From the UHGV virus genome UHGV-0387525: a DNA stretch of 41,290 nucleotides, one strand, 5' to 3'. Shown in pieces: positions 1-14,798 of this stretch; positions within the stretch are counted from its first letter, which is position 1, and every line of letters begins with the position of its first letter. The DNA comes from a virus. The notes below the pieces were generated by a model. The model was not told the DNA's origin. It was given only the letters and a program-made list of their open reading frames with translations, and made no database searches. The position numbers and the translations under genes were made by a program.

Positions 1-88
1 CTTCTACTCATGATATCTGGCAACAACCCTCTGTAGACCGCCATCCGGCGGTCTACAGAGGGTTGTTGCCAGATATCATGAGTAGAAG
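1..88. repeat. perfect inverted repeat, 42-bp arms (1-42 and 47-88) around centre ATCC
   Basis: 1-42 is the exact reverse complement of 47-88; 1-53 is also the exact reverse complement of 41225-41277, so the left arm may be an assembly foldback. Confidence 0.6.
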
Positions 89-306
89 AAGTATGCCAGT
101 TCCGCTTTTGAGCGCAGCCATTGTCTTGTTTTACAGGCTTTAAAAAGCCCATTCATCAATACCTTACCTGGCATTTTGCGCTTACCTGTTAAGTGAGTCT
201 GGATATAGTGACTCGTCGTTCCGGCTTCCTGTGCGAAGGCTTCACGCTCATCCGGAGTAAGTGCAAGCCAGTGCTTTTTGAAATCGAAATGTCCGTTATC
301 GCTCAT
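76..306 (-). CDS. small HTH DNA-binding protein, Cro/CII-like by position (first gene of minus-strand early arm)
   Basis: 76 aa; helix-turn-helix-like segment AQEAGTTSHYIQTHLTGKR; divergent from repressor candidate across an operator-bearing intergenic region. Confidence 0.5.
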   Translation of the reverse strand: MSDNGHFDFKKHWLALTPDEREAFAQEAGTTSHYIQTHLTGKRKMPGKVLMNGLFKACKTRQWLRSKAELAYFFYS

Positions 307-373
307 AGCTATTGCCTGATATTTATTTCAGATAATAAATATTCACCCATAAGGTAACAAAAATCAAGGATAG

Positions 374-388
374 TTACCTATGAGGTGC
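374..388. promoter_or_regulatory. variant operator site TTACC-TATGA-GGTGC
   Basis: left half matches the repeated palindrome, right half degenerate; in divergent promoter region 307-460. Confidence 0.35.
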
Positions 389-390
389 AT

Positions 391-405
391 TTACCTGTTG
401 GGTAA
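391..405. promoter_or_regulatory. operator-like palindrome TTACC-N5-GGTAA
   Basis: ttacctgttgggtaa; between divergent genes 76..306 and 461..1045. Confidence 0.6.
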
Positions 406-460
406 TATTGCTTTAAATTGAATCATCTACTGATTCATATATGAGGCGATTTTCCAGAAA

Positions 461-1045
461 ATGAAAAGTATCCAGGACGTCCGCAGGCAAAATCTCAACG
501 ACTTGATCGACCGTGAATTCAATGGTGTTCAGACGCGGATGGCAGAAAAACTTGGAACTCAGGCAAATCTGGTAAACCGCTGGGCTCTTGGCAAGAAGGT
601 TATCGGCGACCAGGTTGCACGAAAAATTGAAGCGGCCGCCAATAAACCCCGTAACTGGCTTGATATTGATCGTTCGCTTTCTCAGGAGGGTTTTCAGCCT
701 GTCGGCCCGAGCGATATAGGTCAGCTGGCGGCTCACAACCTGGAACGCTGGATGAGCGAAAGCCGCGACCTTTCAACACAGGGAAAACTTCACCGCGCAT
801 CCGGCGTCGCCCAGGTGACAATCAGCCGCCTGTTAAACAATGAGGTCAGCGTTTCCATTTCCACCCTGGAGAATGTTGCATCCGCATTCGGGCGTCACGG
901 ATATGAACTACTGATTCACCCGCACGACCCTGCGACTATCAACTATGACCGCTCACGCTACGCATTGTTACCCGAAACCGAGAAAGCAAAGATCGAAAGT
1001 TACATTGAATTTGTCATCAACCAGAACGAAAAAAGCAAACAATAA
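461..1045 (+). CDS. tandem-HTH transcriptional regulator; candidate non-cleavable immunity repressor
   Basis: 194 aa with two XRE-like HTH segments (RMAEKLGTQANLVNRWALGKK and ASGVAQVTISRLLNNEVSVSI); no S24 peptidase-like motif seen; monocistronic, followed by intrinsic terminator; weak RBS. Confidence 0.5.
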   Translation: MKSIQDVRRQNLNDLIDREFNGVQTRMAEKLGTQANLVNRWALGKKVIGDQVARKIEAAANKPRNWLDIDRSLSQEGFQPVGPSDIGQLAAHNLERWMSESRDLSTQGKLHRASGVAQVTISRLLNNEVSVSISTLENVASAFGRHGYELLIHPHDPATINYDRSRYALLPETEKAKIESYIEFVINQNEKSKQ

Positions 1046-1066
1046 AACTATAGTTTTCAGTAAGTA

Positions 1067-1090
1067 AGCCGCCTCATGGCGGCTTTTTTA
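1067..1090 (+). terminator. rho-independent terminator
   Basis: stem agccgcc/ggcggct, loop tcat, then TTTTT. Confidence 0.7.
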
Positions 1091-1102
1091 TTGCCAGATA
1101 GA

Positions 1103-1117
1103 TTACCTTACGGGTAA
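1103..1117. promoter_or_regulatory. operator-like palindrome TTACC-N5-GGTAA
   Basis: ttaccttacgggtaa; preceded by TTGCCA -35-like hexamer at 1091-1096. Confidence 0.6.
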
Positions 1118-1164
1118 TTTTTTTAACTCATATCTATTGACACCAAACCAAATAAGCATAATTA

Positions 1165-1179
1165 TTACCCCAACGGTAA
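1165..1179. promoter_or_regulatory. operator-like palindrome TTACC-N5-GGTAA at a promoter
   Basis: ttaccccaacggtaa; TTGACA at 1137-1142 upstream; site overlaps the predicted -10/+1. Confidence 0.6.
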
Positions 1180-1198
1180 CAGACCGAGGTAACAAGTT

Positions 1199-1351
1199 AT
1201 GCAGTGGAAAATCATCAACGGTTGGTACTGCGTTACTGCATGCGGATTCATGAGCTGGAAGTTCCGCACCTTACAGGAAGGCATTAAGTGGGCTTTCGTC
1301 AGCAAAGAAGCTCGCGATGTAGCCAACGATAACGAGATATGGGAGGGCTGA
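1199..1351 (+). CDS. small hypothetical protein (50 aa), not in the supplied ORF track
   Basis: ATG at 1199 with GAGG 8-9 nt upstream; TGA at 1349-1351 overlaps RBS of next gene. Confidence 0.3.
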   Translation: MQWKIINGWYCVTACGFMSWKFRTLQEGIKWAFVSKEARDVANDNEIWEG

Positions 1352-1353
1352 TA

Positions 1354-1653
1354 ATGAACGTTAATCAGCAGAAAAATCTTCAAAAAATCATGCTGGCATT
1401 CGACAAGGACTACCGCCTGTCAGAACAGCTATATGACCGACAAGTTGAACTGATTGAGAGCATCCGACTTCATCAACTGTCCTCAACTTTCGACGTTGTA
1501 ACAGGCAAAGGCGTTCGTCAGGAAGTGCTGGAGGCTGCTAAAGACAGCCCTGAGTTCGAAGAACTGATGGATGCCTACCGGCGCGAGGCAATGGCAATTA
1601 TAGCGCGCTGGGATCTGGCGGATCAGCTTGATGGGCAGAGGGACGCGGCATGA
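1354..1653 (+). CDS. hypothetical early protein
   Basis: ORF with GGGAGGG RBS 7 nt before ATG 1354; stop overlaps next start (ATGATG). Confidence 0.5.
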   Translation: MNVNQQKNLQKIMLAFDKDYRLSEQLYDRQVELIESIRLHQLSSTFDVVTGKGVRQEVLEAAKDSPEFEELMDAYRREAMAIIARWDLADQLDGQRDAA

Positions 1654-2549
1654 TGCGGAACGCTGGAATCATGGATAGAACAAAATACATCGGAGGAAGC
1701 GATGTTGCAGGGATTCTTGGAATTAGCCCATGGCGCACCCCGCTTGAGGTTTATCTGGATAAGGTCCAGCCACGTGTCAAACCAGTAGACCCAAGCAAGC
1801 AGAAAGTTTTCACGCGTGGCCAGCGTATGGAGCCATACGTAATAGACCTGCTTTCTGAGGAAACAGGGATGGAAATCGTTCATCGCGGAAACCGCTATAT
1901 CCACCGTGATTACGATTTTATTGCAGCTGAGATCGATGCAGAAGCAGCGTCAGGCGAGAACATTGAGATCAAAACAGTTAGTCCGTTCAAAGCCAAAGAA
2001 TGGGGAGAAATCCAGACAGATGCAATTCCTGTGCATTACACGGCCCAGGCCATGCACGGGTTGATGGTTACAAACAAACAGGTATGCGTTTTCGGTGTGC
2101 TTATCGGTGGCGACGACTTCCGAATCTATCGGGTTGAGCGTGATGAAGAAACTATCCAGGCGATCTTAGAAAAAGAAATCGCTTTCTGGGACCGAGTGAA
2201 AAATCTTAACCCGCCGGAAGCTACCAGCGTAAGCGATGTATCGCTGATGTTTGAGAAAGATGCCGGGACAAGTATCGAGGCTGACGGAAAGGCACTCGCA
2301 CTATTCAACGATCTACGAGACATGAAATCACGCAGAAAATCACTGGAAGAAGAAATAGCTATATCAGAAGAGAAGCTGAAGATGTACATGCAAGAGCACT
2401 CAGTCCTGACCCTGGACGGAAAGCCGCTCTGCACATGGAAATCTCAGATCAGCAACATATTCGACCAGAAGCTATTCCAGTCAGTACACCCTGAGTTATT
2501 CGAAAAATTCAAAACAACAACGACACAACGCGTCTTCAGAATGAAGTAA
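1650..2549 (+). CDS. YqaJ-type (lambda-Exo-fold) recombination exonuclease
   Basis: N-terminal GGSDVAGILGISPWRTPLEVY signature typical of YqaJ viral recombinase family; immediately upstream of RecT. Confidence 0.8.
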   Translation: MMRNAGIMDRTKYIGGSDVAGILGISPWRTPLEVYLDKVQPRVKPVDPSKQKVFTRGQRMEPYVIDLLSEETGMEIVHRGNRYIHRDYDFIAAEIDAEAASGENIEIKTVSPFKAKEWGEIQTDAIPVHYTAQAMHGLMVTNKQVCVFGVLIGGDDFRIYRVERDEETIQAILEKEIAFWDRVKNLNPPEATSVSDVSLMFEKDAGTSIEADGKALALFNDLRDMKSRRKSLEEEIAISEEKLKMYMQEHSVLTLDGKPLCTWKSQISNIFDQKLFQSVHPELFEKFKTTTTQRVFRMK

Positions 2550-2558
2550 GGAGAAAAA

Positions 2559-3581
2559 ATGTCTATCAATGCACTTAAGGCAGCGGCTACCGGTAACCAA
2601 GTTGCACATCATAATGAGAAACCAACAACTCTGGCCGGACTTCTGGCAGACCCAAAAATTAAAGCTCAGATGGCTTTGGCACTTCCAAAGCACATGACAG
2701 CAGACCGTCTGGCGCGCATAGCAACCACAGAGATCAGAAAGGTTCCAAAACTTGCATCATGCGACCAAGCCAGCTTCCTGGGGGCAATTATGCAATGTGC
2801 CCAATTGGGTCTTGAACCAGGCGGAGCTCTTGGACACGCTTACCTGATACCGTTCGACAAACGCCAGAAAGTAAATGGAAGATGGGAAACCGTATCTACA
2901 GAAGCACAGCTGATTATCGGCTATCGCGGAATGATTGACCTTGCCCGCCGCTCTGGGCAGATCCTGAGTATCTCGGCTCGTACCGTACATACAAACGACA
3001 AATTCAGCTACTCATACGGCCTGGAAGAAACGCTCGAGCATTTACCTTGCGAAACAGGTGACCGCGGAGAATTAACGCACGTTTACGCCGTTGCACGACT
3101 GAAAGATGGCGGAGTCCAATTTGAAGTTATGAGCCGGGCAGACGTTGAGAAAGTTCGTGCACTGAGCAAAGCCGGTAGCAGTGGCCCATGGGTTGATCAC
3201 TTCGATGAGATGGCTAAAAAAACAGTAATTCGCCGACTGTTCAAATATCTTCCTGTTTCTATTGAAATGCAGAAGGCTGTTGTTATGGATGAGCGCGCTG
3301 AAGCTGGACTTAGCCAAGATAACGCAGCTGTTATCACTGGTGAATATTCCGTAGTTGACGATGAGCGTCAACACCTGTCGCCAATTTCAGATTCAGAACG
3401 AGAAGAAGCTCGAGAATATATCATCGCGATACTTAATAGCCTGGATCCATCTGCTGAAGATGCAAAAACGATGTTCAAGCGCGCTGAAAATGAAATTAAC
3501 ACCATGGCTGAAAAGCTCGGTGATGAATATCACCAAAAATTCATGATGACGCTTAACGATATGCGTCCAGAATTCGAGTAA
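2559..3581 (+). CDS. recT: RecT single-strand annealing recombinase
   Basis: long stretches recalled as near-identical to Rac RecT (ATTEIRKVP, LGLEPG..LGHAYL, LIIGYRGMIDLARRSGQI, HVYAVARLKDGG, RRLFKYLPVSIE). Confidence 0.9.
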   Translation: MSINALKAAATGNQVAHHNEKPTTLAGLLADPKIKAQMALALPKHMTADRLARIATTEIRKVPKLASCDQASFLGAIMQCAQLGLEPGGALGHAYLIPFDKRQKVNGRWETVSTEAQLIIGYRGMIDLARRSGQILSISARTVHTNDKFSYSYGLEETLEHLPCETGDRGELTHVYAVARLKDGGVQFEVMSRADVEKVRALSKAGSSGPWVDHFDEMAKKTVIRRLFKYLPVSIEMQKAVVMDERAEAGLSQDNAAVITGEYSVVDDERQHLSPISDSEREEAREYIIAILNSLDPSAEDAKTMFKRAENEINTMAEKLGDEYHQKFMMTLNDMRPEFE

Positions 3582-3630
3582 CCACCACCGCGGCGCCACG
3601 TGCGCCGCACTGCAACCAAGAGAGGTATTC

Positions 3631-3879
3631 ATGAAAGGTGCATTAGGTAAGAAAGAACTCCTGGCGGTGGTGCCACTGTCATGGAGCACTATCGACCGTA
3701 TGGAGCGCGCAGGGGAATTTCCTAAACGCTGGTATATCACCGATAAACGCTGCGCATGGAACCGTGATGAAGTTGAGCGTTGGCTTGATGAACGTCAGGC
3801 AGCAAGCCCGGCAGAGTTCCAGGGTAAAAAGCCTCCTGTTCAGCAACGTGTATATCGTCCCGTGAGCAACGCTGCATGA
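3631..3879 (+). CDS. AlpA/Xis-like small DNA-binding protein (putative excisionase or regulator)
   Basis: 82 aa; LSWSTIDRMERAGEFPKRWYI and W..DEVERW pattern typical of AlpA family. Confidence 0.6.
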   Translation: MKGALGKKELLAVVPLSWSTIDRMERAGEFPKRWYITDKRCAWNRDEVERWLDERQAASPAEFQGKKPPVQQRVYRPVSNAA

Positions 3880-3988
3880 GTGCGCTGCTAAGGCACTGGA
3901 GCAAATGGTCAGGATGGTACTTATTCCTGGCCTCTGTTTCAGCATGGCTTTATCTGCTGGCATTAATTTTCAGAGAGGGTTGGATTAA

Positions 3989-4288
3989 GTGAGAAAGTTA
4001 AGCCGACTTGAAAAATATCACATGAATAAGGTTTCAATGCGCAGTCCGTCAAAGATTGTCGCCGTTACTCCTGCGGCGATAGAGATCGAAAAACGCGCGA
4101 TTGAAAGAGGGAAAAAAGGGCAATTCCGCATTGCCGCTCACCTTTGGCTTCAGTGTATGGATGTTGCTTCTGGTGATGTTGAACGTGCAAGGATCGCGGT
4201 TCGCAGGGACCAATGTATCACAAAAGGTAACGGCCTTCGCCGTGGCGACTATAGCGGCATAGGATGTTGTGGGGTGGTTTATGACTAA
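3989..4288 (+). CDS. hypothetical protein (GTG start)
   Basis: ORF with AGAGGG RBS 8 nt before GTG 3989; alternative ATG at 4022. Confidence 0.4.
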   Translation: MRKLSRLEKYHMNKVSMRSPSKIVAVTPAAIEIEKRAIERGKKGQFRIAAHLWLQCMDVASGDVERARIAVRRDQCITKGNGLRRGDYSGIGCCGVVYD

Positions 4289-4931
4289 TAAATACACACT
4301 AATCTATGCAGATCCACCCTGGGTATACCGGGACAAAGCCGCAGATGGTAATCGCGGTGCCGGTTTTAAATATCCGGTTATGAGTGTGCTGGATATCTGC
4401 CGCCTTCCTGTGTGGGATTTGGCCGATGAAAACTGTCTGTTGGCCATGTGGTGGGTGCCAACACAACCACTCGAAGCACTAAAAGTTGTTGAAGCCTGGG
4501 GATTCCGTCTGATGACGATGAAGGGCTTCACGTGGATAAAATGTGGTAGTCGACAACCAGATAAACTGGTTATGGGTATGGGACACATGACTCGCGCCAA
4601 TAGTGAAGATTGCCTGTTTGCGGTAAAGGGAAAACTACCTACGCGCATTAATGCAGGGATCGTTCAGTCATTTACCGCACCGCGGCTTGAGCATTCAAGA
4701 AAGCCAGATATCGTTCGTGAAAAACTTGTGCAATTATTAGGCGATGTTTCTCGCATTGAACTGTTCGCCAGCCAGACGTCTCATGGTTTCGATGTTTGGG
4801 GTAATCAGTGCGAAGACCCGGCAGTGCAACTACATCCTGGATACGCGTTGGATATTGGCGGATTAACAAATGCATTCAGCAATGCTCCGCTGTCACCAAC
4901 AGACAACCAGGGGCGGGAGCGTGCAGCATGA
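4281..4931 (+). CDS. MT-A70-family N6-adenine DNA methyltransferase
   Basis: DPPW motif ([10 protein letters not shown]); GGGGTGG RBS before ATG 4281; stop overlaps next start (ATGA). Confidence 0.8.
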
Positions 4932-5587
4932 ACCTATATCAACGCATCAATGGCGCTGACTGGTGCAATATCTTCGTCGTCGGCGATCTGCATGGGTGCT
5001 ACACACTGCTGATGAACGAACTCGACAAAGTTTCATTCGACCCGGCGCGCGATTTGCTTATTTCCGTTGGTGACCTTGTTGACCGCGGCGCTGAAAACGT
5101 CGAATGCCTGGATTTGATTACTATGCCGTGGTTCCGAGCTGTTCGTGGCAACCATGAGCACATGATGATTGATGGCTTATCAGAGCGTGGAAACGTCAAT
5201 CACTGGCTGCTTAATGGCGGTGGCTGGTTCTTTAATCTCGATTACGACAAAGAAATTCTGGCTAAAGCTCTTGCCCATAAAGCAGATGAACTTCCGTTAA
5301 TCATCGAACTGGTGAGCAAAGATAAAAAATATGTCATCTGCCACGCCGATTATCCTTGTGACGAATACGAGTTTGGAAAGCCAGTTGATCATCAGCAGGT
5401 AATCTGGAACCGCGAACGAATCAGCAACTCACAAGACGGGATCGTGAAAGAAATCAAAGGCGCGGACATGTTCATCTTTGGTCATACGCCAGCAGTGAAA
5501 CCACTCAAGTTTGCCAACCAGATGTATATCGATACCGGCGCAGTGTTCTGCGGAAATCTGACGCTTACCAAAGTCCAGGAAGGATAG
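4928..5587 (+). CDS. Ser/Thr protein phosphatase, lambda-phosphatase/PrpA-like
   Basis: metallophosphatase motifs GDLHG, GDLVDRG, GNHE; in-frame start at ATG 4928. Confidence 0.85.
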
Positions 5588-5589
5588 AA

Positions 5590-6846
5590 TTATTTATTAC
5601 TGTCTTCCATCCACTTCTCAAACTTCGACGGGGAGAACGGAATCAGATCCGTATGCTCCCCGTTAATCCAGGAATCAATCATATCGGCCCACTGCTGCAA
5701 CATGTAGGCGCGCTGTCTGGCGTATTCCGCTTTGTTATATACGGCGCGCACACCTTTCTGCTCGTGTGCCAGAGCCTTTTCAATCCAGTCTGAAGGATAA
5801 CCAGCCTCATGCAACAATGTACTGGCTGTACGGCGCATATCATGTACAGTAAAATCCTGAATATGCTCACCATCTTCATTTATTATTTTCACCGTTCTGT
5901 CGATCAGAGAGTTCAGCGCGGCATTAGATAATGGCTTCCGGAAATTGTAACGACCAGGAACCAGATATTCACTTCCACCAGCGCACATCTGCAACCCGAC
6001 TAATATATCCTGTGCCTGTTTAGGCAGGTAAATAACGTGCGCCCGACTTCCCTTCATGCGGTCTGAAGGAATTGTCCATGTCCATTTTTTAAAATCTATT
6101 TCATCCCACGTTGCATTGGTGAATTCTCCCTTACGAACCATGGTGATAAGCACCAGCTTTAAAGCCATTTTCATAGTGCCCATAGCACCAATGGCATCCA
6201 GCGTGCGGAAGAACAGGCCAATTTCTTCTGGTGTCAGTGTTCGCTCTCGTGGTTTAAATATGGCGATAGACGAAGGTTTAATGTCAGCCGCAGGATTAAA
6301 CAAACCATGACCACGGTCATTGGCGTGACGGTATACGCTGCTGATGATCTCCCTGGCCTGTACTGCTGTTGCCCGACCACCGCGTTCGACAATCCGGTCA
6401 CACAAATCACGAACCATTGATGTGGTAATTTCAGCCATCATTTTGTTGCCAAGAACCGGAAGTATGTCACGGTCGATCACCGCCTGCTTCATTGCGCGGG
6501 TACTGTCAGCCAGGATGACGTGTTTCATATAACTGTCGGTATGTACCGCAAACGTCTCGGCACCACGAATCTTTTTAATACCGTCACGTTTAGCCGCAGC
6601 CGGTGACTGGCCTGCTTTAAGCAGCTTCTTTGCAGCAATCAGTTCTTCTCGCGCTTCTGCCAGGCTGATACCGTCACGCCCATACTGCCCGATTACCAGT
6701 GTTTCGCGGCGACCGTTGATACGGTAGTCATAGCGAAACGAGACCGTGCCTGACGTAAGCACAGCTACATACAGCCCGTCACGATCGGAGACCTTGTACA
6801 GTTTGTCCTGCGGCTTGAGGTTTTTTAATTTTGTATCGGTAAGCAC
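5590..6846 (-). CDS. int: tyrosine-type phage integrase
   Basis: 418 aa; C-terminal catalytic region with HDMRRT and LAH...VRAVY motifs (R-H-R-Y pattern). Confidence 0.9.
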   Translation of the reverse strand: MLTDTKLKNLKPQDKLYKVSDRDGLYVAVLTSGTVSFRYDYRINGRRETLVIGQYGRDGISLAEAREELIAAKKLLKAGQSPAAAKRDGIKKIRGAETFAVHTDSYMKHVILADSTRAMKQAVIDRDILPVLGNKMMAEITTSMVRDLCDRIVERGGRATAVQAREIISSVYRHANDRGHGLFNPAADIKPSSIAIFKPRERTLTPEEIGLFFRTLDAIGAMGTMKMALKLVLITMVRKGEFTNATWDEIDFKKWTWTIPSDRMKGSRAHVIYLPKQAQDILVGLQMCAGGSEYLVPGRYNFRKPLSNAALNSLIDRTVKIINEDGEHIQDFTVHDMRRTASTLLHEAGYPSDWIEKALAHEQKGVRAVYNKAEYARQRAYMLQQWADMIDSWINGEHTDLIPFSPSKFEKWMEDSNK

Positions 6847-6888
6847 AATTCACCCGTATAGAAACCATTTTCATGACGGTATGAGAGT

Positions 6889-6903
6889 ATACCTTTAAGG
6901 TAA
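6889..6903. promoter_or_regulatory. operator-like palindrome ATACC-N5-GGTAA upstream of int
   Basis: atacctttaaggtaa; flanked by inverted copies of ATACCGTCA. Confidence 0.5.
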
Positions 6904-6957
6904 TACCGTCACCTGTACCGACGAAAAATATGGTGTAGAGTGAATAGAAATGAATAC

Positions 6958-6993
6958 ATAAAAACAAAAACCCTCTGTAAAAACAGAGGGTTA
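6958..6993 (-). terminator. rho-independent terminator ending the late/lysis operon
   Basis: 10-bp stem aaccctctgt/acagagggtt, loop aaaaa; on minus strand followed by TTTTTGTTTTT. Confidence 0.7.
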
Positions 6994-7163
6994 AATTAGT
7001 ATCTGAATAGGAATGAGTTGCTATGAGTTAGCTGTTAATCATTCCCACTCAATTATTTACGATAACCATAACCAATTGAGTGATAACATTTTTCCAAATC
7101 TCAATTTTTCCCGTACCGTTTTATATACCGTCACCGGAAATCAGTACCATGAAAAATGCCATG

Positions 7164-7646
7164 CTATCTGGTCAAAGTGTCGTACTGTTTTTCGCAGACT
7201 CTTCCGGCTTCGGCTGCCCGGTCAGCATACTCTGCCAGTTGTCTGTTTCTCTCGAGAGATTTGCTGAGCACGTCGGCAAGCAAAACTCCGGTGTCTGCGG
7301 CTGACGACCCAGCGCCGACAATGGCGTTATACTGCCTGAGCTGCTCACGGATGGCAAAGAGTTGTTGCTGCAACCGGCCAGCGCTAGCGGCAGCATCAAG
7401 AGCATCATTGCGCGCCTGGTCGATCCTCTGCTGAGCTTCACGTTCATTGGTCACTTTCTCCTGTTCGTAGTACTGACGAACTTTGTCTTCTTCGGCTTTG
7501 CGGTCTTCTTCCGCCTGAGCATACCCGGCATCGTACTGGCGACTGCCGTGTATATTCCAGGCAACAACTCCTGATATGACCAGAACAGCAAGCACTGCCA
7601 CGATAATCAACTGTTTCCAGTATGCTTTTACGAATGCCCAGATCAT
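7164..7646 (-). CDS. Rz-like i-spanin
   Basis: N-terminal TM helix, coiled-coil-rich body, C-terminal Cys; resembles lambda Rz; last gene of lysis cassette. Confidence 0.7.
7172..7408 (-). CDS. Rz1-like o-spanin lipoprotein embedded in Rz (+1 frame)
   Basis: lipobox LALAGC after short hydrophobic leader, Pro-containing mature region; exact start uncertain. Confidence 0.45.
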   Translation of the reverse strand: MMLLMLPLALAGCSNNSLPSVSSSGSITPLSALGRQPQTPEFCLPTCSANLSRETDNWQSMLTGQPKPEESAKNSTTL

Positions 7647-8272
7647 ACCGCCAGCACCTTACTGGCAGTGATGTACCGCGCTCGCCGGTCGTCGATGCCG
7701 TTCCGGCCACCATTGATAATCAGAGTTACACGTGCAATATCGCCGGTATACTTCATGCATCCTTTGCTGGCGAAGAACCACGCCGCGCTACGAGCCGCAT
7801 ATTCGTCCTGCGCCAGCAGTTCAGGGCTCTCCAGCAGGTCAACCTTCAGACCGTTTCCGCAATCACGATAGTTATTCAAACCGGTAATCTGGATAAGTCC
7901 GCGCCCTCGGTAATTCCAGCCATCACCAGGGGCATTGTTCCCCATGCGTTTGCTGTATACCAGATTTGCGATCGCGCGCTGGCGCTCAAGTGGCAATGGT
8001 GGTTCACCAGCACGGCGCCCCAGTGCATTAGCCTGCCCCTGAGTGAGACGCCCAGCCCGAACGAAGTTAGCCAGTCCGCTGACACTGTAGTTGAAATTCT
8101 CCTGCAACCTGGTGAAGCCCCCAGACTCATGCCCGACTTGAGCAATAAACATTGCCTGATCTTCTGCTTTGCTGATACCAAACTCTTTCATCGCAGAAGT
8201 TATATGCGAGAACCAGCGTGCGGCCAGTGCCTCGCTGATACCAGCAGCTCGCTGGAATTGTTTAATCTCCAT
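7643..8272 (-). CDS. endolysin, glycoside hydrolase family 19 (chitinase-like)
   Basis: GHESGGF and [13 protein letters not shown] motifs; start moved to MEIKQ (ATG 8272) with GAGGT RBS. Confidence 0.8.
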
Positions 8273-8561
8273 GTTTAGACCTCGATACTTTAAAAATTTG
8301 AACGACGTTACCGCGCGTTTTAATAACCGCAGCCAGCATGACAGCGTTGATAATGACCTCAGATAAATCCACAGCCATTGGCGTACGTAACCAGATTGCA
8401 TAGGCGACTCGAACAGGAATACTGGCCGCAGCAACAATCAGGAAATAAGCAAGCCATCCTCCCCACCTTCGATGTTGAGAGCCGTTACGCCGGAATGTGA
8501 CAACGCGAATTGCTATGCCAGTGCAAATAACTGCATTAGTGATAAGCAAAAAAAAACTCAT
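8262..8561 (-). CDS. small membrane protein in lysis cassette (holin/antiholin candidate)
   Basis: 99 aa with 2-3 hydrophobic helices; start overlaps upstream stop (ATGA). Confidence 0.4.
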
Positions 8562-8962
8562 GCGTTACCATCGTCTTTTCTCCCCGGAATTAACTCGCGT
8601 GGATTATCGGAACGGTGATAGAGCCATATACCAATACGCACAGCGACAATTGCTGACACGAATGCGCCTGCAGAGAAAACAATCCCTTTTTCAAAAGAGT
8701 CCTGCGTGATGGTAGGGATCAGGCTGGCTATGCCGATAAGAATTGATGCTGCTGGTTTGTAAAAGAGAAGGCCGCAAAGAAAGCTGAGCATCGACAGGAG
8801 CACCCGGCGACGGATGGGGTACTCTACTGCAGAGGTAACAAAAATTACCGCCCCAGCCAAAGCCCCTAAAGCAACCTCCGGAGGGACACCTGCAATAACT
8901 GCAGCAAGAGAACCAAAACTAAGCAACTGATTTAATTGCTCACTTGTTACTTGAGCAGACAT
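8558..8962 (-). CDS. putative holin
   Basis: 134 aa, several TM helices, charged C-terminus; first gene of lysis cassette. Confidence 0.45.
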   Translation of the reverse strand: MSAQVTSEQLNQLLSFGSLAAVIAGVPPEVALGALAGAVIFVTSAVEYPIRRRVLLSMLSFLCGLLFYKPAASILIGIASLIPTITQDSFEKGIVFSAGAFVSAIVAVRIGIWLYHRSDNPRELIPGRKDDGNA

Positions 8963-9242
8963 ACTTTCTCCTGTTTACTATCTATAAGCCAGTCAATTAT
9001 TGATGACTAAACCCGCATAGTAAACCATATATGAATCATTATTGTTCCATATCATATATCTCAATAAAAGTACTAATGATTTTACAGAACGAGCCAGCAG
9101 AGTGGGGGCAGTTGTACAGGAACCATAGACTTAATTTTGTATTTAATAATGCTATGGTGTAATAAACCTGAACATGTATTTAAAATACGTACTGATTCAT
9201 GATAGAATTCAAAGATAACTTTTCACCAACTCCGTTTTTGAT

Positions 9243-9270
9243 GCCCGCAATATTTTGCGGGCTTTTTTTT
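9243..9270 (+). terminator. plus-strand intrinsic terminator abutting the tailspike stop
   Basis: stem gcccgcaa/ttgcgggc, loop tatt, then eight T on plus strand. Confidence 0.55.
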
Positions 9271-12200
9271 AACGTTCTTCCAGAGACTGAACCCGCTCTT
9301 TTATCTTATCCATTTCTCTGCGCTGCCATGCTGCCTCGATATAGAATAAGAGATCAGGTCTGACCCCCCATCTAGATCCTGCTGGCGTTATTTCAACGCG
9401 CTCAATGATGTCTTCTATTACCATCACTGGATTATCATCCTCATCAACAATGATGCTCCCGTCATTATCAGTCAGCGGCATTTCCCTTTGGCCAGTAATG
9501 ACGTCATCATATACTGCGGGATAATCGTCATAGCAAAGAAAGGCATAGCGGCATGTTGTGCTTTCTTCTTCCATGAGTCCGTGAGAAATAAGAACATCAC
9601 GAAGTTGCTGCGCGATTACACCATGATGTATCCTCGCCCCTTCTTCCCCCTTTATAGCGACAGCGTTCAGCCATTTATAAGCGATATACCTGACGTCACC
9701 CCAGGCATCCAGCAATGCTTCGTCAGGAGAGACCGGCTCTGTCTTTAATGTTCCGTCACTGGTAACCACAGGATTGGAGCCAAGATAAACTGTCGAGAAC
9801 CTGTTTCCCGGACCACCAAGAGCATTTACATTATCAAGATAAGGTTTAACATCTCCGTTCTCAAAAAGATGTTCGAGTGCGTTATATACCGCGCGACGTG
9901 GAGTACTGCTTCCGGAACCATGCAACGTTATCATTGCACCATCTGCTGAAGACGTTGTTTCACCGCCGCTAACGATTAATCTCTGAGCGGTAACATCATC
10001 AGACGGTACTTTCTTCGCAATAATGGCGTAATTACCCTCAAGTTTGACTTCCGCGCGAACTTGTCCTGATGTACCTGCATGGACAGTCAGTGACTGGACG
10101 GCAACATCATCTGTGAAATCAACGGGTACAGGAACCGTCCTCACGCCTGACGTCGACATAAAAGTAGGAAGCGTTCTGTTAGGAGTGGCTCCGTAGACAA
10201 AATCCCTTGAAACAAATTCTTCCTGTTTAATTTTCACCCTGAAACAATACAAATCAGCCGGGTGACCATCGTGAACATAAGGATATTTTCTGTTGTTATC
10301 CCCTATGCTCCATGGGTTTAGAAAGTCTTCCCCACCGAAAATGTAGTACAGCCAGTTGTCTTTGATACAAACTGAACCAACACCAACCGCAGAGTTAACT
10401 ATTCCGCCCTGATAAATCTGATCAGTAACATTAACCCACTCTACATTATCCAGACTCCACTCATTGACGTTAACTCTGGTCATAAATGTTCTTGGATAAT
10501 TTCCTGCATAACGGTTATCAGGTTCTCCTCCTTCCCACTCACCAAATGCGCGCTCACTGCCAAAAATAATCAGCTCATCGCCAACTTTGGCAAAAGGAAG
10601 GTTTGAGTGATGAACATTATTTGGGAAGCGAAGAGAATTCCATGATGTACCTAAATCAGAGCTTCTGTGCAATGAACTACCGGGTTGAGTACTTAATGTC
10701 CCCCTGGTCGTCAGATACAGAATGCCATCATAATATTTTACACATGGCTCAGATGCATTCGCCTCATATTCTACAGGTATGCGTCTGCGAACAAAGCTAC
10801 CAGGAGAACCGAAAGCATCAGAGAAATAGAGTATCCCAAGCTCGCGTGGACCAATATCACCATTATGGTAGCCAACAGCAAAACTGTTATCGCTAATCGT
10901 CGCAAAACTGTGAATCTCAGTAACAGGAGTGCTTCCGTCAACAAAAGAAGGAATAGTTCCAAGACTGGTTTTTCTCCATGGTGACGAGTGAAATGATGTG
11001 CCAAAACTCCAGTATCTACCCTCGTTATTCTGATCCACATCCTGGGTATTTTGCGTCGTAACTGTAAAGGTATTTTTATCAATAACAGTAGTCACCGTCA
11101 TATTCCCGGTAACACCTGTAACACCAGAGTTTGAGAAGTTGACAAAATCACCAGCAAATAATCCGTGATCAGTAATGCGAATATAAGCGACTTGCTGATT
11201 TGCTGCTTTCGTTATACCACCATAAACGCGAAGGCTGCGACTCATTGGGCGATCCCACAACTCTGCAACCTGCAGTTTATTTCCTCTCACGGTCCGCGTC
11301 TCAATTACAGCAAAAAGGCGATTTCTGACAACCCCCATACTCATGCAGTGATAGTTAACTGTGGGATAGTTTTCATGTAAATCTGTAAGCCATTCCGGCG
11401 TTGTCCAGGTCTTCCCGTCATCTCCTGAGCGAACCCATGCAACATGGAGGTTATTCACACCATGGCGGTCTCCAGCCATAAAAGGCGCATAGATGACATT
11501 GTCATATACAAACGTTTTATCCTGCGTCCAGGCGTTGTACCACGGTGTATCTGTAATTTTAAATAACTCTCCCTGGATAAAATCTTCAGAAGCATAAAAA
11601 AGAGGCTGGCCCGGTATTCTCTCAAATAAAAAACGAGCATTTTTAAATCGACTGACATCCGGAAGAGTTGATACTTTAAAAGTAAGCCCTAATCCGTCAA
11701 TTTTATAACCTGGAGATGAGGCTTCAAGGCACGCGCTTATTGCAGTGGAATCGTCATTTATACCATCACCAACAGCTCCAAAATCTTTGGGGCTAATAGC
11801 ATCACGCATTTTATCCTGGAACGTTCGGTACACAGCCCCAGAACCATACTGAATAAACCAACCAAAACCACCAACAACTCCGGCGATTGCAGCATCGACA
11901 TAATTACGCATTGAGCGATTATTTACAGCGTCCTGCTCAAATGATGGATCTGCAAGGTTAGAAATTTTGTTTTGCTTTGCATCGTAATATTTTGCAAGCA
12001 AAGATGGTTTCATCAATGCACGTCTGAACCACCCAAAACATTGCTGGATCAGCATCGTCAGGTAGTCAAAGGCATCTTCATGCACTTCGGGGAAAAATTT
12101 TCCCTGATTGCGAAGGTCTGTGTCCTGCACTACATCAAGCACACGATCTATCGTAATTCGCCATCCAGTAGCAAGCGGAGACGGAAGAACCACAGAACCG

Positions 12201-12388
12201 CCACTATAAGTGCCCGCCCCAGTTACCGTATAACCGGTATCCAGGACCAATTCTGTTACGTTCCCGTTCAGGTCAGACACCTGAACAACCAGGTCTGATT
12301 TTCTGAAAATTCGAAAAGTATACGGAAACGATGTCGTAACGCCGTTACCGGTGTATTCGTTGTGGTCAACTTCGGTTGAGACCGTCAT
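9269..12388 (-). CDS. tail fibre/tailspike with predicted glycan depolymerase body and C-terminal S74-type intramolecular chaperone
   Basis: 1039 aa; N-terminus shows T7 gp17-like adaptor pattern (YTGNGVTTSFPYTF...VVQV); DFGAVGDGINDDSTAI pectate-lyase-like motif; Asp-box-like SGDDGKTW and SSDLGTSW; C-terminal ...ARIHHGVIAQQL chaperone-like segment. Confidence 0.75.
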   Translation of the reverse strand: MTVSTEVDHNEYTGNGVTTSFPYTFRIFRKSDLVVQVSDLNGNVTELVLDTGYTVTGAGTYSGGSVVLPSPLATGWRITIDRVLDVVQDTDLRNQGKFFPEVHEDAFDYLTMLIQQCFGWFRRALMKPSLLAKYYDAKQNKISNLADPSFEQDAVNNRSMRNYVDAAIAGVVGGFGWFIQYGSGAVYRTFQDKMRDAISPKDFGAVGDGINDDSTAISACLEASSPGYKIDGLGLTFKVSTLPDVSRFKNARFLFERIPGQPLFYASEDFIQGELFKITDTPWYNAWTQDKTFVYDNVIYAPFMAGDRHGVNNLHVAWVRSGDDGKTWTTPEWLTDLHENYPTVNYHCMSMGVVRNRLFAVIETRTVRGNKLQVAELWDRPMSRSLRVYGGITKAANQQVAYIRITDHGLFAGDFVNFSNSGVTGVTGNMTVTTVIDKNTFTVTTQNTQDVDQNNEGRYWSFGTSFHSSPWRKTSLGTIPSFVDGSTPVTEIHSFATISDNSFAVGYHNGDIGPRELGILYFSDAFGSPGSFVRRRIPVEYEANASEPCVKYYDGILYLTTRGTLSTQPGSSLHRSSDLGTSWNSLRFPNNVHHSNLPFAKVGDELIIFGSERAFGEWEGGEPDNRYAGNYPRTFMTRVNVNEWSLDNVEWVNVTDQIYQGGIVNSAVGVGSVCIKDNWLYYIFGGEDFLNPWSIGDNNRKYPYVHDGHPADLYCFRVKIKQEEFVSRDFVYGATPNRTLPTFMSTSGVRTVPVPVDFTDDVAVQSLTVHAGTSGQVRAEVKLEGNYAIIAKKVPSDDVTAQRLIVSGGETTSSADGAMITLHGSGSSTPRRAVYNALEHLFENGDVKPYLDNVNALGGPGNRFSTVYLGSNPVVTSDGTLKTEPVSPDEALLDAWGDVRYIAYKWLNAVAIKGEEGARIHHGVIAQQLRDVLISHGLMEEESTTCRYAFLCYDDYPAVYDDVITGQREMPLTDNDGSIIVDEDDNPVMVIEDIIERVEITPAGSRWGVRPDLLFYIEAAWQRREMDKIKERVQSLEER

Positions 12389-12492
12389 GTTAAATCTCCA
12401 GATAGTCGCAGCACCCGTTGCGCCGCATATCTGGTTATTCTATTACCTAAAAAACCATATATGGATAAAAAGACTATAAATACCAATAGATA

Positions 12493-12507
12493 TTACCTTT
12501 CGGGTAA
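12493..12507. promoter_or_regulatory. operator-like palindrome TTACC-N5-GGTAA
   Basis: ttacctttcgggtaa upstream of gene 12584..12841. Confidence 0.6.
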
Positions 12508-12544
12508 TTTGCAAAACGTGCTGGATAGCAAACAAATTATTTGT

Positions 12545-12564
12545 TACTGTATAAACATACAGTT
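12545..12564. promoter_or_regulatory. LexA (SOS) box
   Basis: TACTGTATAAACATACAGTT: CTGT-N8-ACAG, 17/20 match to TACTGTATATATATACAGTA. Confidence 0.7.
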
Positions 12565-12583
12565 ATTGCATGGAGAAGATAAG

Positions 12584-12841
12584 ATGCAGCAGTATCACTA
12601 TCCACTGGAAGACGGATTTACCGAAAGGATTCACACGCCGGGAGGCGTCAGGTCACTGGTGGAGGGATCGCACTTGATGAAATTACTCCGGGATCTCGAT
12701 AAGGATGGATTTAATGTCGATGGCCCACTTGCCGAACTGACTGCACTGATTAACTACGTCACCAGCTCACAGATGTCTATGCAGGATCTGCAAACACATC
12801 TCGACTATTGTGCCGAACAATTACGAAAACAAACCCGGTAA
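12584..12841 (+). CDS. small antirepressor-like protein (Tum-like), paralogous to C-terminus of Ant
   Basis: 85 aa; GGAGAAG RBS before ATG 12584; LMKLLRDLDKDGFNVDGPLAELTAL...MQDLQTHLDY aligns by eye with LMNLLNQLQEDGHDVSGAAAELTTM...LRDIQTHAEY at the end of 13990..14685. Confidence 0.55.
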   Translation: MQQYHYPLEDGFTERIHTPGGVRSLVEGSHLMKLLRDLDKDGFNVDGPLAELTALINYVTSSQMSMQDLQTHLDYCAEQLRKQTR

Positions 12842-12847
12842 ATTTAA

Positions 12848-12865
12848 AGGCCGCAAGAGCGGCCT
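12848..12865. terminator. bidirectional hairpin between convergent genes
   Basis: stem aggccgc/gcggcct, loop aaga; T-rich on both sides. Confidence 0.45.
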
Positions 12866-13592
12866 ATCGTTTCGCTTTGTGCTCGTCCCAGCACGTTTTG
12901 CACCATGCCATTAAGCCGTCCGCATTTTGATTATTAGGGTAAAAGCTGGTCCGTTTTCTGCGGACATTACAAATTGGGCACCACTTCATATGGCGTGTAT
13001 TCTTTGGGCCATCGAGACACCTTGCACACCACTTAGTCAATCCATCTGGATTTTTTGACGATTTCCGGAATTTGTCATATGGAAGGTTTATTCTGCATCG
13101 CAAACACTGCTTGCGGCCACTTGAAACTCTGTTAGCTGATTCTTCTTTTGGCGGCGATACAGAAGGTATTCTTGCTGGCTCTGATACTGCCTGAGGTGCT
13201 TTATTAGATGACTGAGACGATATGTCATCACCAGGGAATCTTCCATGATATGCCGGACGCGTTGACACTCCAGGTGGAAGCTCAGCTGTAAACGGCTTTG
13301 GCTGAATCAGTTGCCTCTCTTTTGCTAACTCCTGCTGTTTATAATATGTCTGGATTACCGCACTATCATAAGCAGGAGGTGCGGAAATATTAGGCGCATT
13401 ACCTCCAGTTTTTTGAAACTGAGTAGAGGTGTGTTCTATCACCTGTGTACGATTAATCGTTATCTCCCCATCTTCGGTCTTTATCGTTTTGTTATGATTA
13501 ACGACCGTACGATCAGAGATCTTAGTCTTGTTCTGGTTGATAACGTAAATAATCACCGCAACCACACCAACAACTATCCAGAAAACTTCCAT
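12864..13592 (-). CDS. membrane-anchored protein with tandem Cys-rich (zinc-ribbon-like) repeats
   Basis: 242 aa; N-terminal TM helix; two copies of C..C..N.DGL..WC..C pattern near C-terminus. Confidence 0.45.
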   Translation of the reverse strand: MEVFWIVVGVVAVIIYVINQNKTKISDRTVVNHNKTIKTEDGEITINRTQVIEHTSTQFQKTGGNAPNISAPPAYDSAVIQTYYKQQELAKERQLIQPKPFTAELPPGVSTRPAYHGRFPGDDISSQSSNKAPQAVSEPARIPSVSPPKEESANRVSSGRKQCLRCRINLPYDKFRKSSKNPDGLTKWCARCLDGPKNTRHMKWCPICNVRRKRTSFYPNNQNADGLMAWCKTCWDEHKAKR

Positions 13593-13612
13593 TGCTTTTC
13601 CTCACAATAACA

Positions 13613-13627
13613 TTACCTTAAAGGTAA
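13613..13627. promoter_or_regulatory. operator-like palindrome TTACC-N5-GGTAA
   Basis: ttaccttaaaggtaa, 21 bp upstream of the minus-strand start at 13592. Confidence 0.6.
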
Positions 13628-13705
13628 TATCTTGCTTTCAGGTGATCAAGCGTTAAACGCAATCAACCAAATACGGTTGATTTTAATATTTCTTCGCGTT
13701 TATCA

Positions 13706-13720
13706 TTACCTTTGCGGTAA
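13706..13720. promoter_or_regulatory. operator-like palindrome overlapping promoter -10
   Basis: ttacctttgcggtaa; TTGATT (13677-13682), 18-nt spacer, TATCAT (13701-13706). Confidence 0.6.
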
Positions 13721-13989
13721 ATTTACATCGCACTCCTCTTGTGCCATAGTAATCGGGCACTGGCAAAATCCAGTGCCGGGATTGGCGTCCCGGATTACTA
13801 AAAGGCGCATTCACCGCGCAAGCGGTTTTTTTATGCGTATAGCACGGCCACATTCGTATTATGGTGGGCTGTGTGGGGGCACCGAAAGGTGCGCCGGGTC
13901 CTTTTAGCCGGTTACGCCAACCCTGCACAGTTCACCACCAACCGATTGGCGTCGGTAGTGGTGATTAACCAGACTAAAAGGTAACCACT
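13721..13989 (+). ncRNA. candidate structured leader / small RNA upstream of ant
   Basis: no credible ORF; hairpins at 13757-13778 and 13776-13793; terminator-like hairpin accgc-gcaa-gcggt + T7 at 13813-13832; decoy SD-like actaaaagg 13797-13805; anti-SD ccttttag 13900-13907. Confidence 0.35.
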
Positions 13990-14685: not shown

Positions 14686-14757
14686 CGGGCGGCGGCACAG
14701 GGATGTGCCTTTAAATAATTCTGTACAGATTGCAGACCGGGGGTGAATAGCGTACTA

Positions 14758-14772
14758 TTACCTTAAAGGTAA
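14758..14772. promoter_or_regulatory. operator-like palindrome overlapping promoter
   Basis: ttaccttaaaggtaa; TTGCAG 14730-14735, 17-nt spacer, TACTAT 14753-14758. Confidence 0.6.
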
Positions 14773-14798
14773 ACCATGTGTTTACATGAGGAGGAGAT

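What the first reader, a model, noticed from the sequence alone, without database searches (positions are those of the whole stretch)
1..101. Window ends: 67-bp terminal repeat with flipped hairpin loop and a 42-bp-arm palindrome at the left end
Positions 35-101 recur at 41224-41290 except that the 4-nt loop is ATCC at the left and GGAT at the right. Positions 1-53 are the exact reverse complement of 41225-41277, making 1-88 a perfect palindrome. The simplest reading is a circular genome linearised with an overlap plus a foldback artefact at an 8-bp-stem terminator hairpin. A genuine flip/flop hairpin or terminal redundancy cannot be excluded from sequence alone.
Basis: seen in the sequence. 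Interest (0 to 1): 0.5.

Follow-up and report, generated by a model that had tools for sequence, protein, structure and literature searches.

The report
Assembly foldback at a phage terminator
The odd repeat and long palindrome at the two ends of this 41-kb phage sequence are by-products of how short reads were assembled (a circular genome closed with a 55-base overlap, plus a 46-base chimeric "foldback" spur at an ordinary transcription-terminator hairpin), not real DNA ends.

Summary
Positions 35-101 equal 41224-41290 except for the 4-nt loop, and 1-88 is a 42+4+42 palindrome. The interpretation [quoted passage not shown] is strongly supported.

The window is a phiV10/epsilon15-like temperate podophage (Uetakevirus) with a K1 endosialidase tailspike. 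Its unit genome is 102-41290 (41,189 bp).

The right-hand copy is the native one. 124 related phage and prophage loci, and closed E. coli chromosomes (99.9% identity over 800 nt), read straight through ...GATATGAAA-AGACCGCC-GGAT-GGCGGTCT-ACAGAGGG.... Their loop is GGAT or a point variant and never ATCC. The long palindrome has 0 hits in the viral, genome and metagenome collections.

The hairpin is the intrinsic terminator, read on the minus strand, just after a cro-like gene. phiV10's record annotates it as such.

A single parameter, k=55, predicts both window ends. The 55-mers starting at 1-46 are the only ones absent from the circle. The only 55-mer visited twice is 47-101 = 41236-41290, the last one. 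So the contig is a 46-nt foldback spur plus one full turn closing on the junction k-mer.

There is no protelomerase. The terminase genes and the attachment site lie kilobases away. Low interest; not a real biological feature.

The parts
1..46 (+). Foldback spur. Positions 1-34 are the reverse complement of 55-88 (= 41244-41277). Positions 35-46 are the left stem plus the flipped loop (ATCC). This is the only part of the window that is not in the 41,189-bp circle.
   Evidence: The 55-mers starting at 1..46 are the only window k-mers absent from the circle. No public contig carries this context.
1..88 (.). Palindrome of 42 + 4 + 42 nt. As single-stranded DNA it folds at -53.8 kcal/mol. It is built from the native hairpin plus an inverted copy of the 34 nt on its right side.
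47..101 (+). Left copy of the exact 55-bp closure overlap (= 41236-41290). It starts at the right stem, the first k-mer shared by the spur and the circle.
   Evidence: At k=55 this is the only k-mer visited twice, and it is the last k-mer of the window.
41236..41290 (+). Right copy of the exact 55-bp closure overlap. After 41290 the circle continues at position 102.
   Evidence: Continuity 41290->102 is confirmed in phiV10, phiv142-3, PH444 and PAS61 and in closed E. coli chromosomes.
102..41290 (+). One full turn of the phage genome (41,189 bp): a Uetakevirus (phiV10/epsilon15-like), temperate, with a K1 endosialidase tailspike.
41214..41243 (-). Native intrinsic terminator, read on the minus strand. 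The stem is AGACCGCC/GGCGGUCU (8 bp, 6 G-C), the loop is AUCC and the tail is UUUCAUAUCU. It sits between the cro-like gene and the replication genes.
   Evidence: the only terminator-like site in 40700-41290. (RNA fold). (annotated as a rho-independent terminator in phiV10). (in phage Tyrion the stem pairs fully only in the minus-strand RNA, through a G.U pair).
76..306 (-). Cro-like small regulator gene (76 aa, homologue of phiV10 p41). Its last 13 nt, including the stop codon, lie inside the right palindrome arm (55-88) and are copied in inverted form into 1-13.
   Evidence: ORF; phrog_35, transcriptional repressor, E=5.6e-13.
461..1045 (+). Divergently transcribed HTH repressor, part of the immunity region that contains the window ends.
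   Evidence: HTH_3; phiV10 p40, putative repressor.
40914..41114 (-). First gene downstream of the terminator (phiV10 p42 homologue, about 66 aa). It is followed by a DnaT-like gene (40065-40898) and a lambda-P-like gene (39308-40102).
33609..35755 (-). Terminase large (33609-35084) and small (35081-35755) subunit genes. They mark the packaging region and lie about 5.5-7.7 kb from the window ends.
   Evidence: Terminase_2; phrog_2, terminase large subunit.
5590..7040 (-). Tyrosine integrase (5590-6846) and the inferred attP region. Prophage ends in lysogens fall here, not at the window ends.
   Evidence: In one search, prophage matches in K1 strains start at about window 7037. One search shows a prophage next to guaA.

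Best explanation
The window is a short-read de Bruijn-graph contig (largest k = 55) of a circular or circularly permuted phage genome of 41,189 bp. The graph held the genome as a cycle. It also held one short extra branch made of chimeric 'foldback' reads. In those reads the minus strand runs through the terminator hairpin (RC(D)-AGACCGCC-ATCC-GGCGGTCT) and then, instead of continuing, snaps back on its own 8-bp stem and copies itself (-D). The contig path entered through this branch (positions 1-46), joined the cycle at the first shared 55-mer (47-101), went once around, and stopped on reaching that 55-mer again (41236-41290).

The '67-bp terminal repeat with a flipped loop' is therefore a 55-bp k-mer closure overlap, plus 4 loop bases read from the opposite strand, plus the 8-nt self-complementary stem. 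The '42-bp-arm palindrome' is the native 8-bp hairpin extended by 34 nt (k-21) of inverted copy.

Shown: the geometry, the k=55 fit, the native junction in relatives, and the terminator character of the hairpin. Inferred: the foldback k-mers came from in-vitro chimeras (hairpin-primed self-extension or template switching during amplification or end repair) rather than from molecules made in the cell.
For: (1). k=55 is the only k at which the window begins exactly at the first k-mer absent from the circle (one base further left would already be a circle k-mer) and ends exactly at the first k-mer visited twice. The predicted arm beyond the stem is k-21 = 34 and the predicted apparent repeat is k+12 = 67. 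Both are observed.
(2). 124 related loci (4 GenBank phages and 120 IMG/VR contigs) carry the native context. Their loops are GGAT (66), GGGT (55), GAGT (2) and AGGT (1), never ATCC, and none has the palindromic context.
(3). The palindromic context and the flipped loop have 0 hits in the viral, genome and metagenome contig collections.
(4). The circularised junction (41290->102) is intact at 99.9% over 800 nt in closed E. coli chromosomes, and 424 genomes hold at least 80% of it.
(5). The hairpin is a minus-strand intrinsic terminator after a cro-like gene, one of about five equally stable perfect hairpins in the genome.
(6). The palindrome arm contains the last codons and the stop of a conserved gene and is a 42/42 perfect copy carrying the window's own variants. 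Relatives differ at 4 of the 34 arm positions beyond the stem. That marks the copy as very recent.
(7) Literature. Inverted chimeras primed on 2-21 nt of complementarity dominate MDA products (PMC1855051). Sonication libraries yield chimeric reads at inverted repeats (PMC10908179).
Against: There are no reads, so the origin and abundance of the foldback k-mers are unknown. In an edge-centric graph such as SPAdes (vertices of 55, edges of 56 or more; from my own knowledge of the program) the spur edge would be expected to start one base further left. The fit is exact for a node-centric graph and off by one base for that convention. Four other hairpins of equal stability did not produce spurs, so the event is sporadic and not explained in detail. 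The assembler and library method are not known. That k=55 is a common default (SPAdes and metaSPAdes use 21, 33, 55) is from my own knowledge.
Confidence: 0.9

Rival explanations
1. The foldback molecules are real in-vivo products. During phage replication the nascent minus strand switches template at the terminator hairpin. This produces inverted-dimer or snap-back genomes that form a minor sub-population of the sequenced DNA. The assembler then reported them as a spur.
For: The 46 foldback-specific 55-mers must have existed in reads; no graph ambiguity can create them from an 8-bp stem. The hairpin is among the most stable in the genome. Template switching at short inverted repeats is an established in-vivo mechanism (for example PMC10766183 and PMC7467729, listed; read as title and abstract only).
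Against: The same product arises readily in vitro. No other assembly of more than 120 relatives, nor any contig in three public collections, shows it. The other equally stable hairpins give nothing. Nothing in the sequence calls for a biological role.
Confidence: 0.06
2. A genuine covalently closed hairpin telomere (N15/PY54/phiKO2-like linear plasmid-prophage), or a parvovirus-like flip/flop terminal hairpin. Sequencing around the closed end would give the palindrome, and the two loop orientations would be flip and flop.
For: Reading around a closed hairpin end does give a perfect palindrome with an asymmetric centre. The two loop orientations formally resemble flip and flop.
Against: No protelomerase or Rep/NS1-type gene was found. 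The gene set is a standard integrase, terminase and repressor temperate podophage. Only the left end is palindromic, and the right end runs on into unique upstream sequence. The native site in circular and prophage form has only an 8-bp stem, not a resolvable palindrome of about 50 bp or more. Relatives integrate next to guaA through a tyrosine integrase. The end coordinates are fixed by k=55.
Confidence: 0.01
3. A true direct terminal repeat (T7-like short exact terminal redundancy) of about 55-67 bp at the physical virion ends.
For: There is an exact 55-bp repeat near both window ends. Tools that detect direct terminal repeats would flag such a contig.
Against: The repeat is offset 46 nt from the left end and its length equals a standard k. 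It lies inside the immunity/early region and includes the 3' end of the cro-like gene, 5.5 kb from the nearest terminase gene (terS). The linear phiV10 record is opened upstream of terS, not here. Prophages carry a single copy.
Confidence: 0.03

Closest known systems
k-mer closure overlap of circular contigs from de Bruijn-graph assemblers (as in SPAdes/metaSPAdes with largest k = 55)
   Same: The exact repeat length equals k (55 bp). The repeat marks closure of a cycle. Removing one copy gives the unit genome (41,189 bp), which is colinear with relatives across the join.
   Different: The overlap is not flush with the left end. A 46-nt spur from a foldback branch precedes it, so the simple test 'first k = last k' fails and the repeat looks like 67 bp with a flipped loop.
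Inverted (foldback) chimeras from library preparation or amplification at short inverted repeats (MDA chimeras, PMC1855051; sonication/end-repair chimeric reads, PMC10908179)
   Same: The product is an inverted duplication whose junction sits on a short stretch of self-complementarity (here 8 nt, within the reported 2-21 nt). The loop is kept in the orientation of the strand that folded.
   Different: I could not inspect reads or the library method, so the link is by product structure only.
Rho-independent terminator between cro and the replication genes in lambdoid-style immunity regions (position analogous to lambda tR1; annotated in phiV10, DQ126339.2 33078-33100)
   Same: An 8-bp G+C-rich stem, a 4-nt loop and a U-rich tail on the transcribed (minus) strand, directly after a cro-like gene and before DnaT-like and P-like genes.
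   Different: Termination has not been tested experimentally for this phage group as far as I could find. The U tract is short (UUUCAUAU).
Hairpin telomeres of N15-like linear plasmid-prophages, and flip/flop termini of parvoviruses
   Same: Only the formal appearance: a palindrome at a sequence end with an asymmetric centre seen in two orientations.
   Different: No resolvase or nickase gene, only one palindromic end, a native site with only an 8-bp stem, and an integrating temperate podophage lifestyle.

Membership tests
Circular-contig k-mer overlap (assembly by-product) | An exact repeat whose length equals the assembler's k, closing a cycle | tested here: met
   The exact repeat 47-101 = 41236-41290 is 55 bp. 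At k=55 it is the only k-mer visited twice, and it is the terminal one.
Circular-contig k-mer overlap (assembly by-product) | Removing one copy gives a sequence colinear with independent genomes across the join | tested here: met
   Four GenBank phages read straight through 41290->102, as do closed E. coli chromosomes (99.9% over 800 nt; 424 genomes hold at least 80% of the query).
Circular-contig k-mer overlap (assembly by-product) | Assembler and k documented as 55 | not testable with these tools
   No assembly metadata or reads are available.
Foldback (inverted) chimera artefact | An inverted duplication whose breakpoint lies in a short self-complementary sequence | tested here: met
   The switch from the reverse-complement copy to the forward copy lies within the 8-bp stem and 4-nt loop hairpin.
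Foldback (inverted) chimera artefact | Absent from independent assemblies of the same or related genomes | tested here: met
   Searches give 0 hits in viral, genome and metagenome contigs. One search gives 0 of 124 related loci.
Foldback (inverted) chimera artefact | Supported by a minority of reads, and dependent on the library or amplification method | not testable with these tools
   No reads are available.
Intrinsic (rho-independent) terminator | A G+C-rich stem-loop followed by a U-rich tract on the transcribed strand, downstream of a gene | tested here: met
   minus strand, 8 pairs, 6 G-C, tail TTTCATATCT; fold; 21 nt after the stop of the cro-like ORF; annotated in phiV10.
Intrinsic (rho-independent) terminator | Pairing conserved in relatives in the RNA sense | tested here: met
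   stems are identical in 124 loci, but the search pattern required exact stems, so this alone is not informative; in phage Tyrion the one stem change is G.U in the minus-strand RNA (-16.0 kcal/mol) but A.C in the plus strand (-11.4). This rests on a single informative relative.
Intrinsic (rho-independent) terminator | Termination shown experimentally | not testable with these tools
   This needs transcript mapping.
Hairpin-telomere phage (N15-like) | Encodes a protelomerase (telomere resolvase) | tested here: not met
   Pfam scans of 20 ORFs, covering the larger ORFs of the segments that do not match phiV10, gave none; none of the 55 annotated phiV10 genes is one. Not every small ORF was scanned.
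Hairpin-telomere phage (N15-like) | A long palindromic resolution site in the circular or replicated form, and both linear ends palindromic when read through | tested here: not met
   the native site has only the 8-bp stem; the right end is not palindromic beyond the stem.
Flip/flop terminal hairpins (rolling-hairpin replication, parvovirus-like) | A linear ssDNA genome with terminal palindromes at the ends and a Rep/NS1 nickase | tested here: not met
   this is a dsDNA tailed-phage gene set with terminase, portal and integrase. The palindrome is at one end only.
Short exact direct terminal repeats (T7-like packaging) | Identical repeats flush with both physical ends | tested here: not met
   the exact repeat is offset 46 nt from the left end; there is a single copy in prophages.
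Short exact direct terminal repeats (T7-like packaging) | Physical ends mapped on virion DNA | not testable with these tools
   This needs virion DNA or read-start statistics. The held literature gave nothing on Uetakevirus termini.

The most novel reading that the evidence does not exclude
The foldback junction reflects real molecules made in infected cells. These would be hairpin-primed template switching of the nascent minus strand at the cro-proximal terminator, giving inverted-dimer or snap-back phage genomes as a replication by-product abundant enough to enter an assembly.
Probability: 0.05. Interest if true: 0.35.

Novelty: not a real feature. Interest (0 to 1): 0.07.

Why it matters
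Mainly as quality control. The contig should be trimmed to 102-41290 (41,189 bp, circular or permuted) before annotation, deposition or completeness scoring. The first 46 nt are not phage sequence order, and they create a spurious inverted copy of the 3' end of the cro-like gene. The case is also a compact, checkable recipe. For a hairpin with stem s and loop l, a foldback spur on a k-mer-closed circle gives an apparent terminal repeat of k + s + l with a flipped loop, and palindrome arms of k - s - l - 1 + s. That lets a scanner recognise and discount this class of window-end oddity automatically. No open biological question is touched.

Tried and rejected
(1) I searched for the palindromic context and for the flipped loop in viral, genome and metagenome contig collections. 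There were no hits, so there is no sign of a recurrent or natural structure.

(2) I looked for published virion-end data on phiV10, epsilon15 and Uetakevirus. The held library had nothing usable, so the packaging type remains unverified. I therefore rely only on the positions of the terminase genes and on where the phiV10 record is opened.

(3) The terminase large subunit against PDB sequences gave no hit and Pfam gave none either. Only PHROGs names it. No packaging class could be assigned.

(4) The simple terminator scan did not flag the Tyrion homologue, although ViennaRNA folds it well on the minus strand. I used the fold.

(5) I considered whether the 8-bp inverted repeat alone could create the spur in silico. 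I rejected this because the arms are far shorter than any usual k, and 46 novel 55-mers are needed, so chimeric reads must have existed.

(6) I considered a natural loop inversion polymorphism (small hairpin-flanked inversions, as known from plastid genomes; from my own knowledge). I rejected it because 0 of 124 relatives have ATCC, and the flipped loop occurs only together with the inverted flank.

(7) I looked for a near-identical full-length record to confirm the unit length independently. The best hits cover only 67-73% of the first 25 kb because the phage is mosaic. The unit length therefore rests on the closure overlap and on colinearity at the join.

Full report
OBSERVATION. I read both ends of the window and compared them by script and with the repeat finder.
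- Positions 35-101 and 41224-41290 are identical except for the four loop bases (ATCC on the left, GGAT on the right).
- Positions 1-54 are the exact reverse complement of 41224-41277.
- Positions 1-42 and 47-88 are perfectly complementary arms around a 4-nt loop.
- These are the only direct repeat of 25 nt or more, and the only long perfect inverted repeats, in the 41,290-bp window, so chance is not an issue.
- The strictly exact direct repeat is 47-101 = 41236-41290, exactly 55 bp. The remaining 12 nt of the reported 67-bp repeat are the loop (all four bases differ) and the 8-nt left stem. That stem is shared only because it is the reverse complement of the right stem.

WHAT THE GENOME IS. 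Megablast of both ends against GenBank phages gives 97-99% identity to phiV10, phiv142-3, PAS61, the O157 typing phages 9 and 10, ZX5 and others of the genus Uetakevirus, the epsilon15-like temperate podophages. The genome is mosaic relative to phiV10. The genes found are:

| Window position (strand) | Gene |
|---|---|
| 76-306 (-) | cro-like regulator |
| 461-1045 (+) | HTH repressor |
| 1650-2549 (+) | YqaJ-type exonuclease |
| 2559-3581 (+) | RecT |
| 5590-6846 (-) | P4-type tyrosine integrase |
| 9269-12388 (-) | endosialidase tailspike, so a K1-capsule host |
| 32825-32901 (+) | tRNA-Arg |
| 33609-35084 (-) | terminase large subunit |
| 35081-35755 (-) | terminase small subunit |
| 39308-40102 (-) | lambda-P-like replication gene |
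| 40065-40898 (-) | DnaT-like replication gene |

No protelomerase or Rep-type nickase was found in the ORFs scanned, and the phiV10 annotation has none.

WHICH COPY IS NATIVE. In phiV10, phiv142-3, PH444 and PAS61 the sequence runs without interruption from the homologue of the window's right end into the homologue of position 102 onwards...gaatagatatgaaa AGACCGCC GGAT GGCGGTCT acagagggttg....
Counting all 124 loci, the loop is GGAT in 66, GGGT in 55, GAGT in 2 and AGGT in 1. It is never ATCC, and none has the inverted left flank.
- The palindromic context (CCCTCTGT-hairpin-ACAGAGGG, any loop) has no exact match in the viral, genome or metagenome contig collections. The flipped loop followed by the right flank has none in the viral collection.
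- The circularised join (400 nt on each side) is present intact at 99.9% identity in closed E. coli chromosomes, and 424 genomes hold at least 80% of it.
- In such lysogens the prophage is integrated beside guaA through the integrase end, and prophage matches in K1 strains begin at about window 7037. The hairpin region is therefore internal to the prophage.

The right-hand copy is the real sequence. The unit genome is 102-41290 (41,189 bp). Only positions 1-46 are foreign to it.

WHAT THE HAIRPIN IS. On the minus strand the native copy reads AGACCGCC-AUCC-GGCGGUCU followed by UUUCAUAUCU.
- It is the only terminator-like site in 40700-41290, and it forms in the RNA fold.
- It lies 21 nt after the stop codon of the 76-aa cro-like ORF (76-306, minus; phrog_35) and ahead of the p42, DnaT-like and P-like genes.
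- The phiV10 record annotates the homologous site as a putative rho-independent terminator on the same strand.
- In the more distant Enterobacter phage Tyrion the one stem substitution gives G.U in the minus-strand RNA (-16.0 kcal/mol) but A.C in the plus strand (-11.4). This fits an RNA element read on the minus strand, although it is a single informative relative.
- The left-end copy has no U tract and is not scored as a terminator.
- The hairpin is one of about five perfect hairpins of similar stability in the genome, so it is not exceptional.

WHY THE ENDS LOOK AS THEY DO. I took the circle 102-41290 and asked, for a range of k, which k-mers of the window (strand-neutral) are absent from the circle and which are visited twice.

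At k=55, and only there, two things hold together:
- The absent k-mers are exactly those starting at 1..46. The window therefore starts at the first foldback-specific k-mer, and extending the palindrome one base to the left would give a k-mer already in the circle.
- Exactly one k-mer is visited twice, the one at 47, which is also the very last k-mer of the window (41236-41290).

At k=54 additional k-mers repeat. At k=56 none do.

In graph terms, the contig enters through a short branch of 46 foldback-specific nodes. It joins the genome cycle at the first node shared by the branch and the cycle (right stem plus 47 nt). It then goes once around and stops on returning to that node. For a stem of 8 and a loop of 4 this predicts an apparent repeat of k+12 = 67 and an inverted arm beyond the stem of k-21 = 34, and both are observed. 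Two independent coordinates fixed by one common assembler parameter is strong evidence that neither window end is a physical DNA end. That 21, 33, 55 is the SPAdes/metaSPAdes default k series is from my own knowledge.

One caveat applies. With an edge-centric convention (vertices of 55, edges of 56 or more) I would expect the spur to start one base further left. The fit is exact for a node-centric graph.

WHERE THE SPUR CAME FROM. An 8-bp inverted repeat cannot confuse a k=55 graph by itself, so the 46 novel 55-mers must have been present in reads.
- Their structure is RC(D)-stem-ATCC-stem-D. That is what results when a minus-strand 3' end finishing at the hairpin folds back on its own stem and is extended, or when a polymerase switches from its template to the nascent strand at the stem.
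- Such inverted chimeras, primed on 2-21 nt of complementarity, make up more than 85% of MDA rearrangements (PMC1855051). Chimeric reads at inverted repeats are also described for sonication and enzymatic libraries (PMC10908179).
- The arm is a 42/42 perfect copy carrying the window's own variants, where relatives differ at 4 of the 34 positions beyond the stem. It also includes the last codons and stop of the cro-like gene. Both points mark it as a very recent copy, not an evolved palindrome.
- Whether the copy arose in the tube or in the cell cannot be decided without reads. I rate in-vitro origin far more likely because the structure is unique to this assembly.

RIVALS.
- Hairpin telomere or flip/flop terminus. 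There is no resolvase or nickase, only one end is palindromic, the native site has only an 8-bp stem, and the phage integrates. This is rejected on tested features.
- True short direct terminal repeat. The exact repeat is offset 46 nt from the left end, it equals k, it lies in the immunity region over the 3' end of a gene, and prophages carry it once. The linear phiV10 record is opened upstream of terS, not here. This is very unlikely.
- Natural loop inversion polymorphism. It occurs in 0 of 124 relatives, and the flip never occurs without the inverted flank. Rejected.

VERDICT. The feature is an assembly and library by-product sitting on an already annotated, ordinary terminator. The window should be treated as a circular or permuted 41,189-bp genome, with positions 1-101 trimmed, or equivalently 1-46 and 41236-41290. 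Interest is low.

Noticed in passing
window 33523-33534 and 35974-35985 (1-mismatch copy at 30437-30448): The perfect 12-bp palindrome GTGACATGTCAC occurs twice (0.07 expected by chance), bracketing the terS-terL pair. One copy sits just after the terL terminator and the other about 220 nt upstream of terS. phiV10 has the same motif after terL, and its linear GenBank record is opened in the middle of the homologous site upstream of terS (...AGTGTGA | CATGTTAC...). It could be a packaging or late-regulator site.
   Followed up: partly
window 9269-12388 (-): The tailspike is a full endosialidase (N-terminal extension, beta-propeller, beta-barrel, tail-spike domain and S74 chaperone; E down to 1.7e-232). 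This Uetakevirus should therefore target K1-capsulated E. coli. Matching prophage segments occur in K1 strains such as IHE3034 and APEC O18.
   Followed up: partly
window 12864-13592 (-), 15008-15871 (+), 15888-16400 (+), 16509-17360 (-): A block of genes absent from phiV10 lies between the tailspike/anti-repressor region and the internal virion protein genes. It includes a 242-aa protein with weak endonuclease VII and Lar-like matches, and two plus-strand ORFs known only as PHROG families of unknown function. G+C is low here (0.41-0.43), so this is possible moron cargo.
   Followed up: no
window 16505-23591 (-): The three large internal virion/ejection protein genes (283, 1129 and 915 aa) have no nucleotide match to phiV10, although the flanking structural genes are 97-98% identical. 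This is a sharp mosaic replacement of the ejection-protein module.
   Followed up: no
window 32825-32901 (+): A tRNA-Arg (anticodon TCT) is encoded between the portal-side genes and terL. It is also annotated in the related E. coli 4/0 prophage.
   Followed up: no
NZ_CP079771.1 (hit H47): A 41,027-bp separate replicon record in the complete genome of E. coli HL15 (duck) carries the same immunity-region junction at 99.6%. A Uetakevirus-sized element has apparently been deposited as a plasmid or episome. Two other 'plasmid' places were also reported.
   Followed up: no
related loci L001-L124, loop of the terminator: The terminator loop is dimorphic among relatives (plus-strand GGAT in 66 and GGGT in 55 of 124 loci) while the stems are unchanged. 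The search pattern required exact stems, so stem variation was not sampled.
   Followed up: partly
window 6969-6992: A perfect 10-bp-stem hairpin AACCCTCTGT-AAAA-ACAGAGGGTT lies just beyond the integrase gene, in the inferred attP region. Its arm shares the octamer CCCTCTGT/ACAGAGGG with the sequence flanking the terminator hairpin at the window ends.
   Followed up: no
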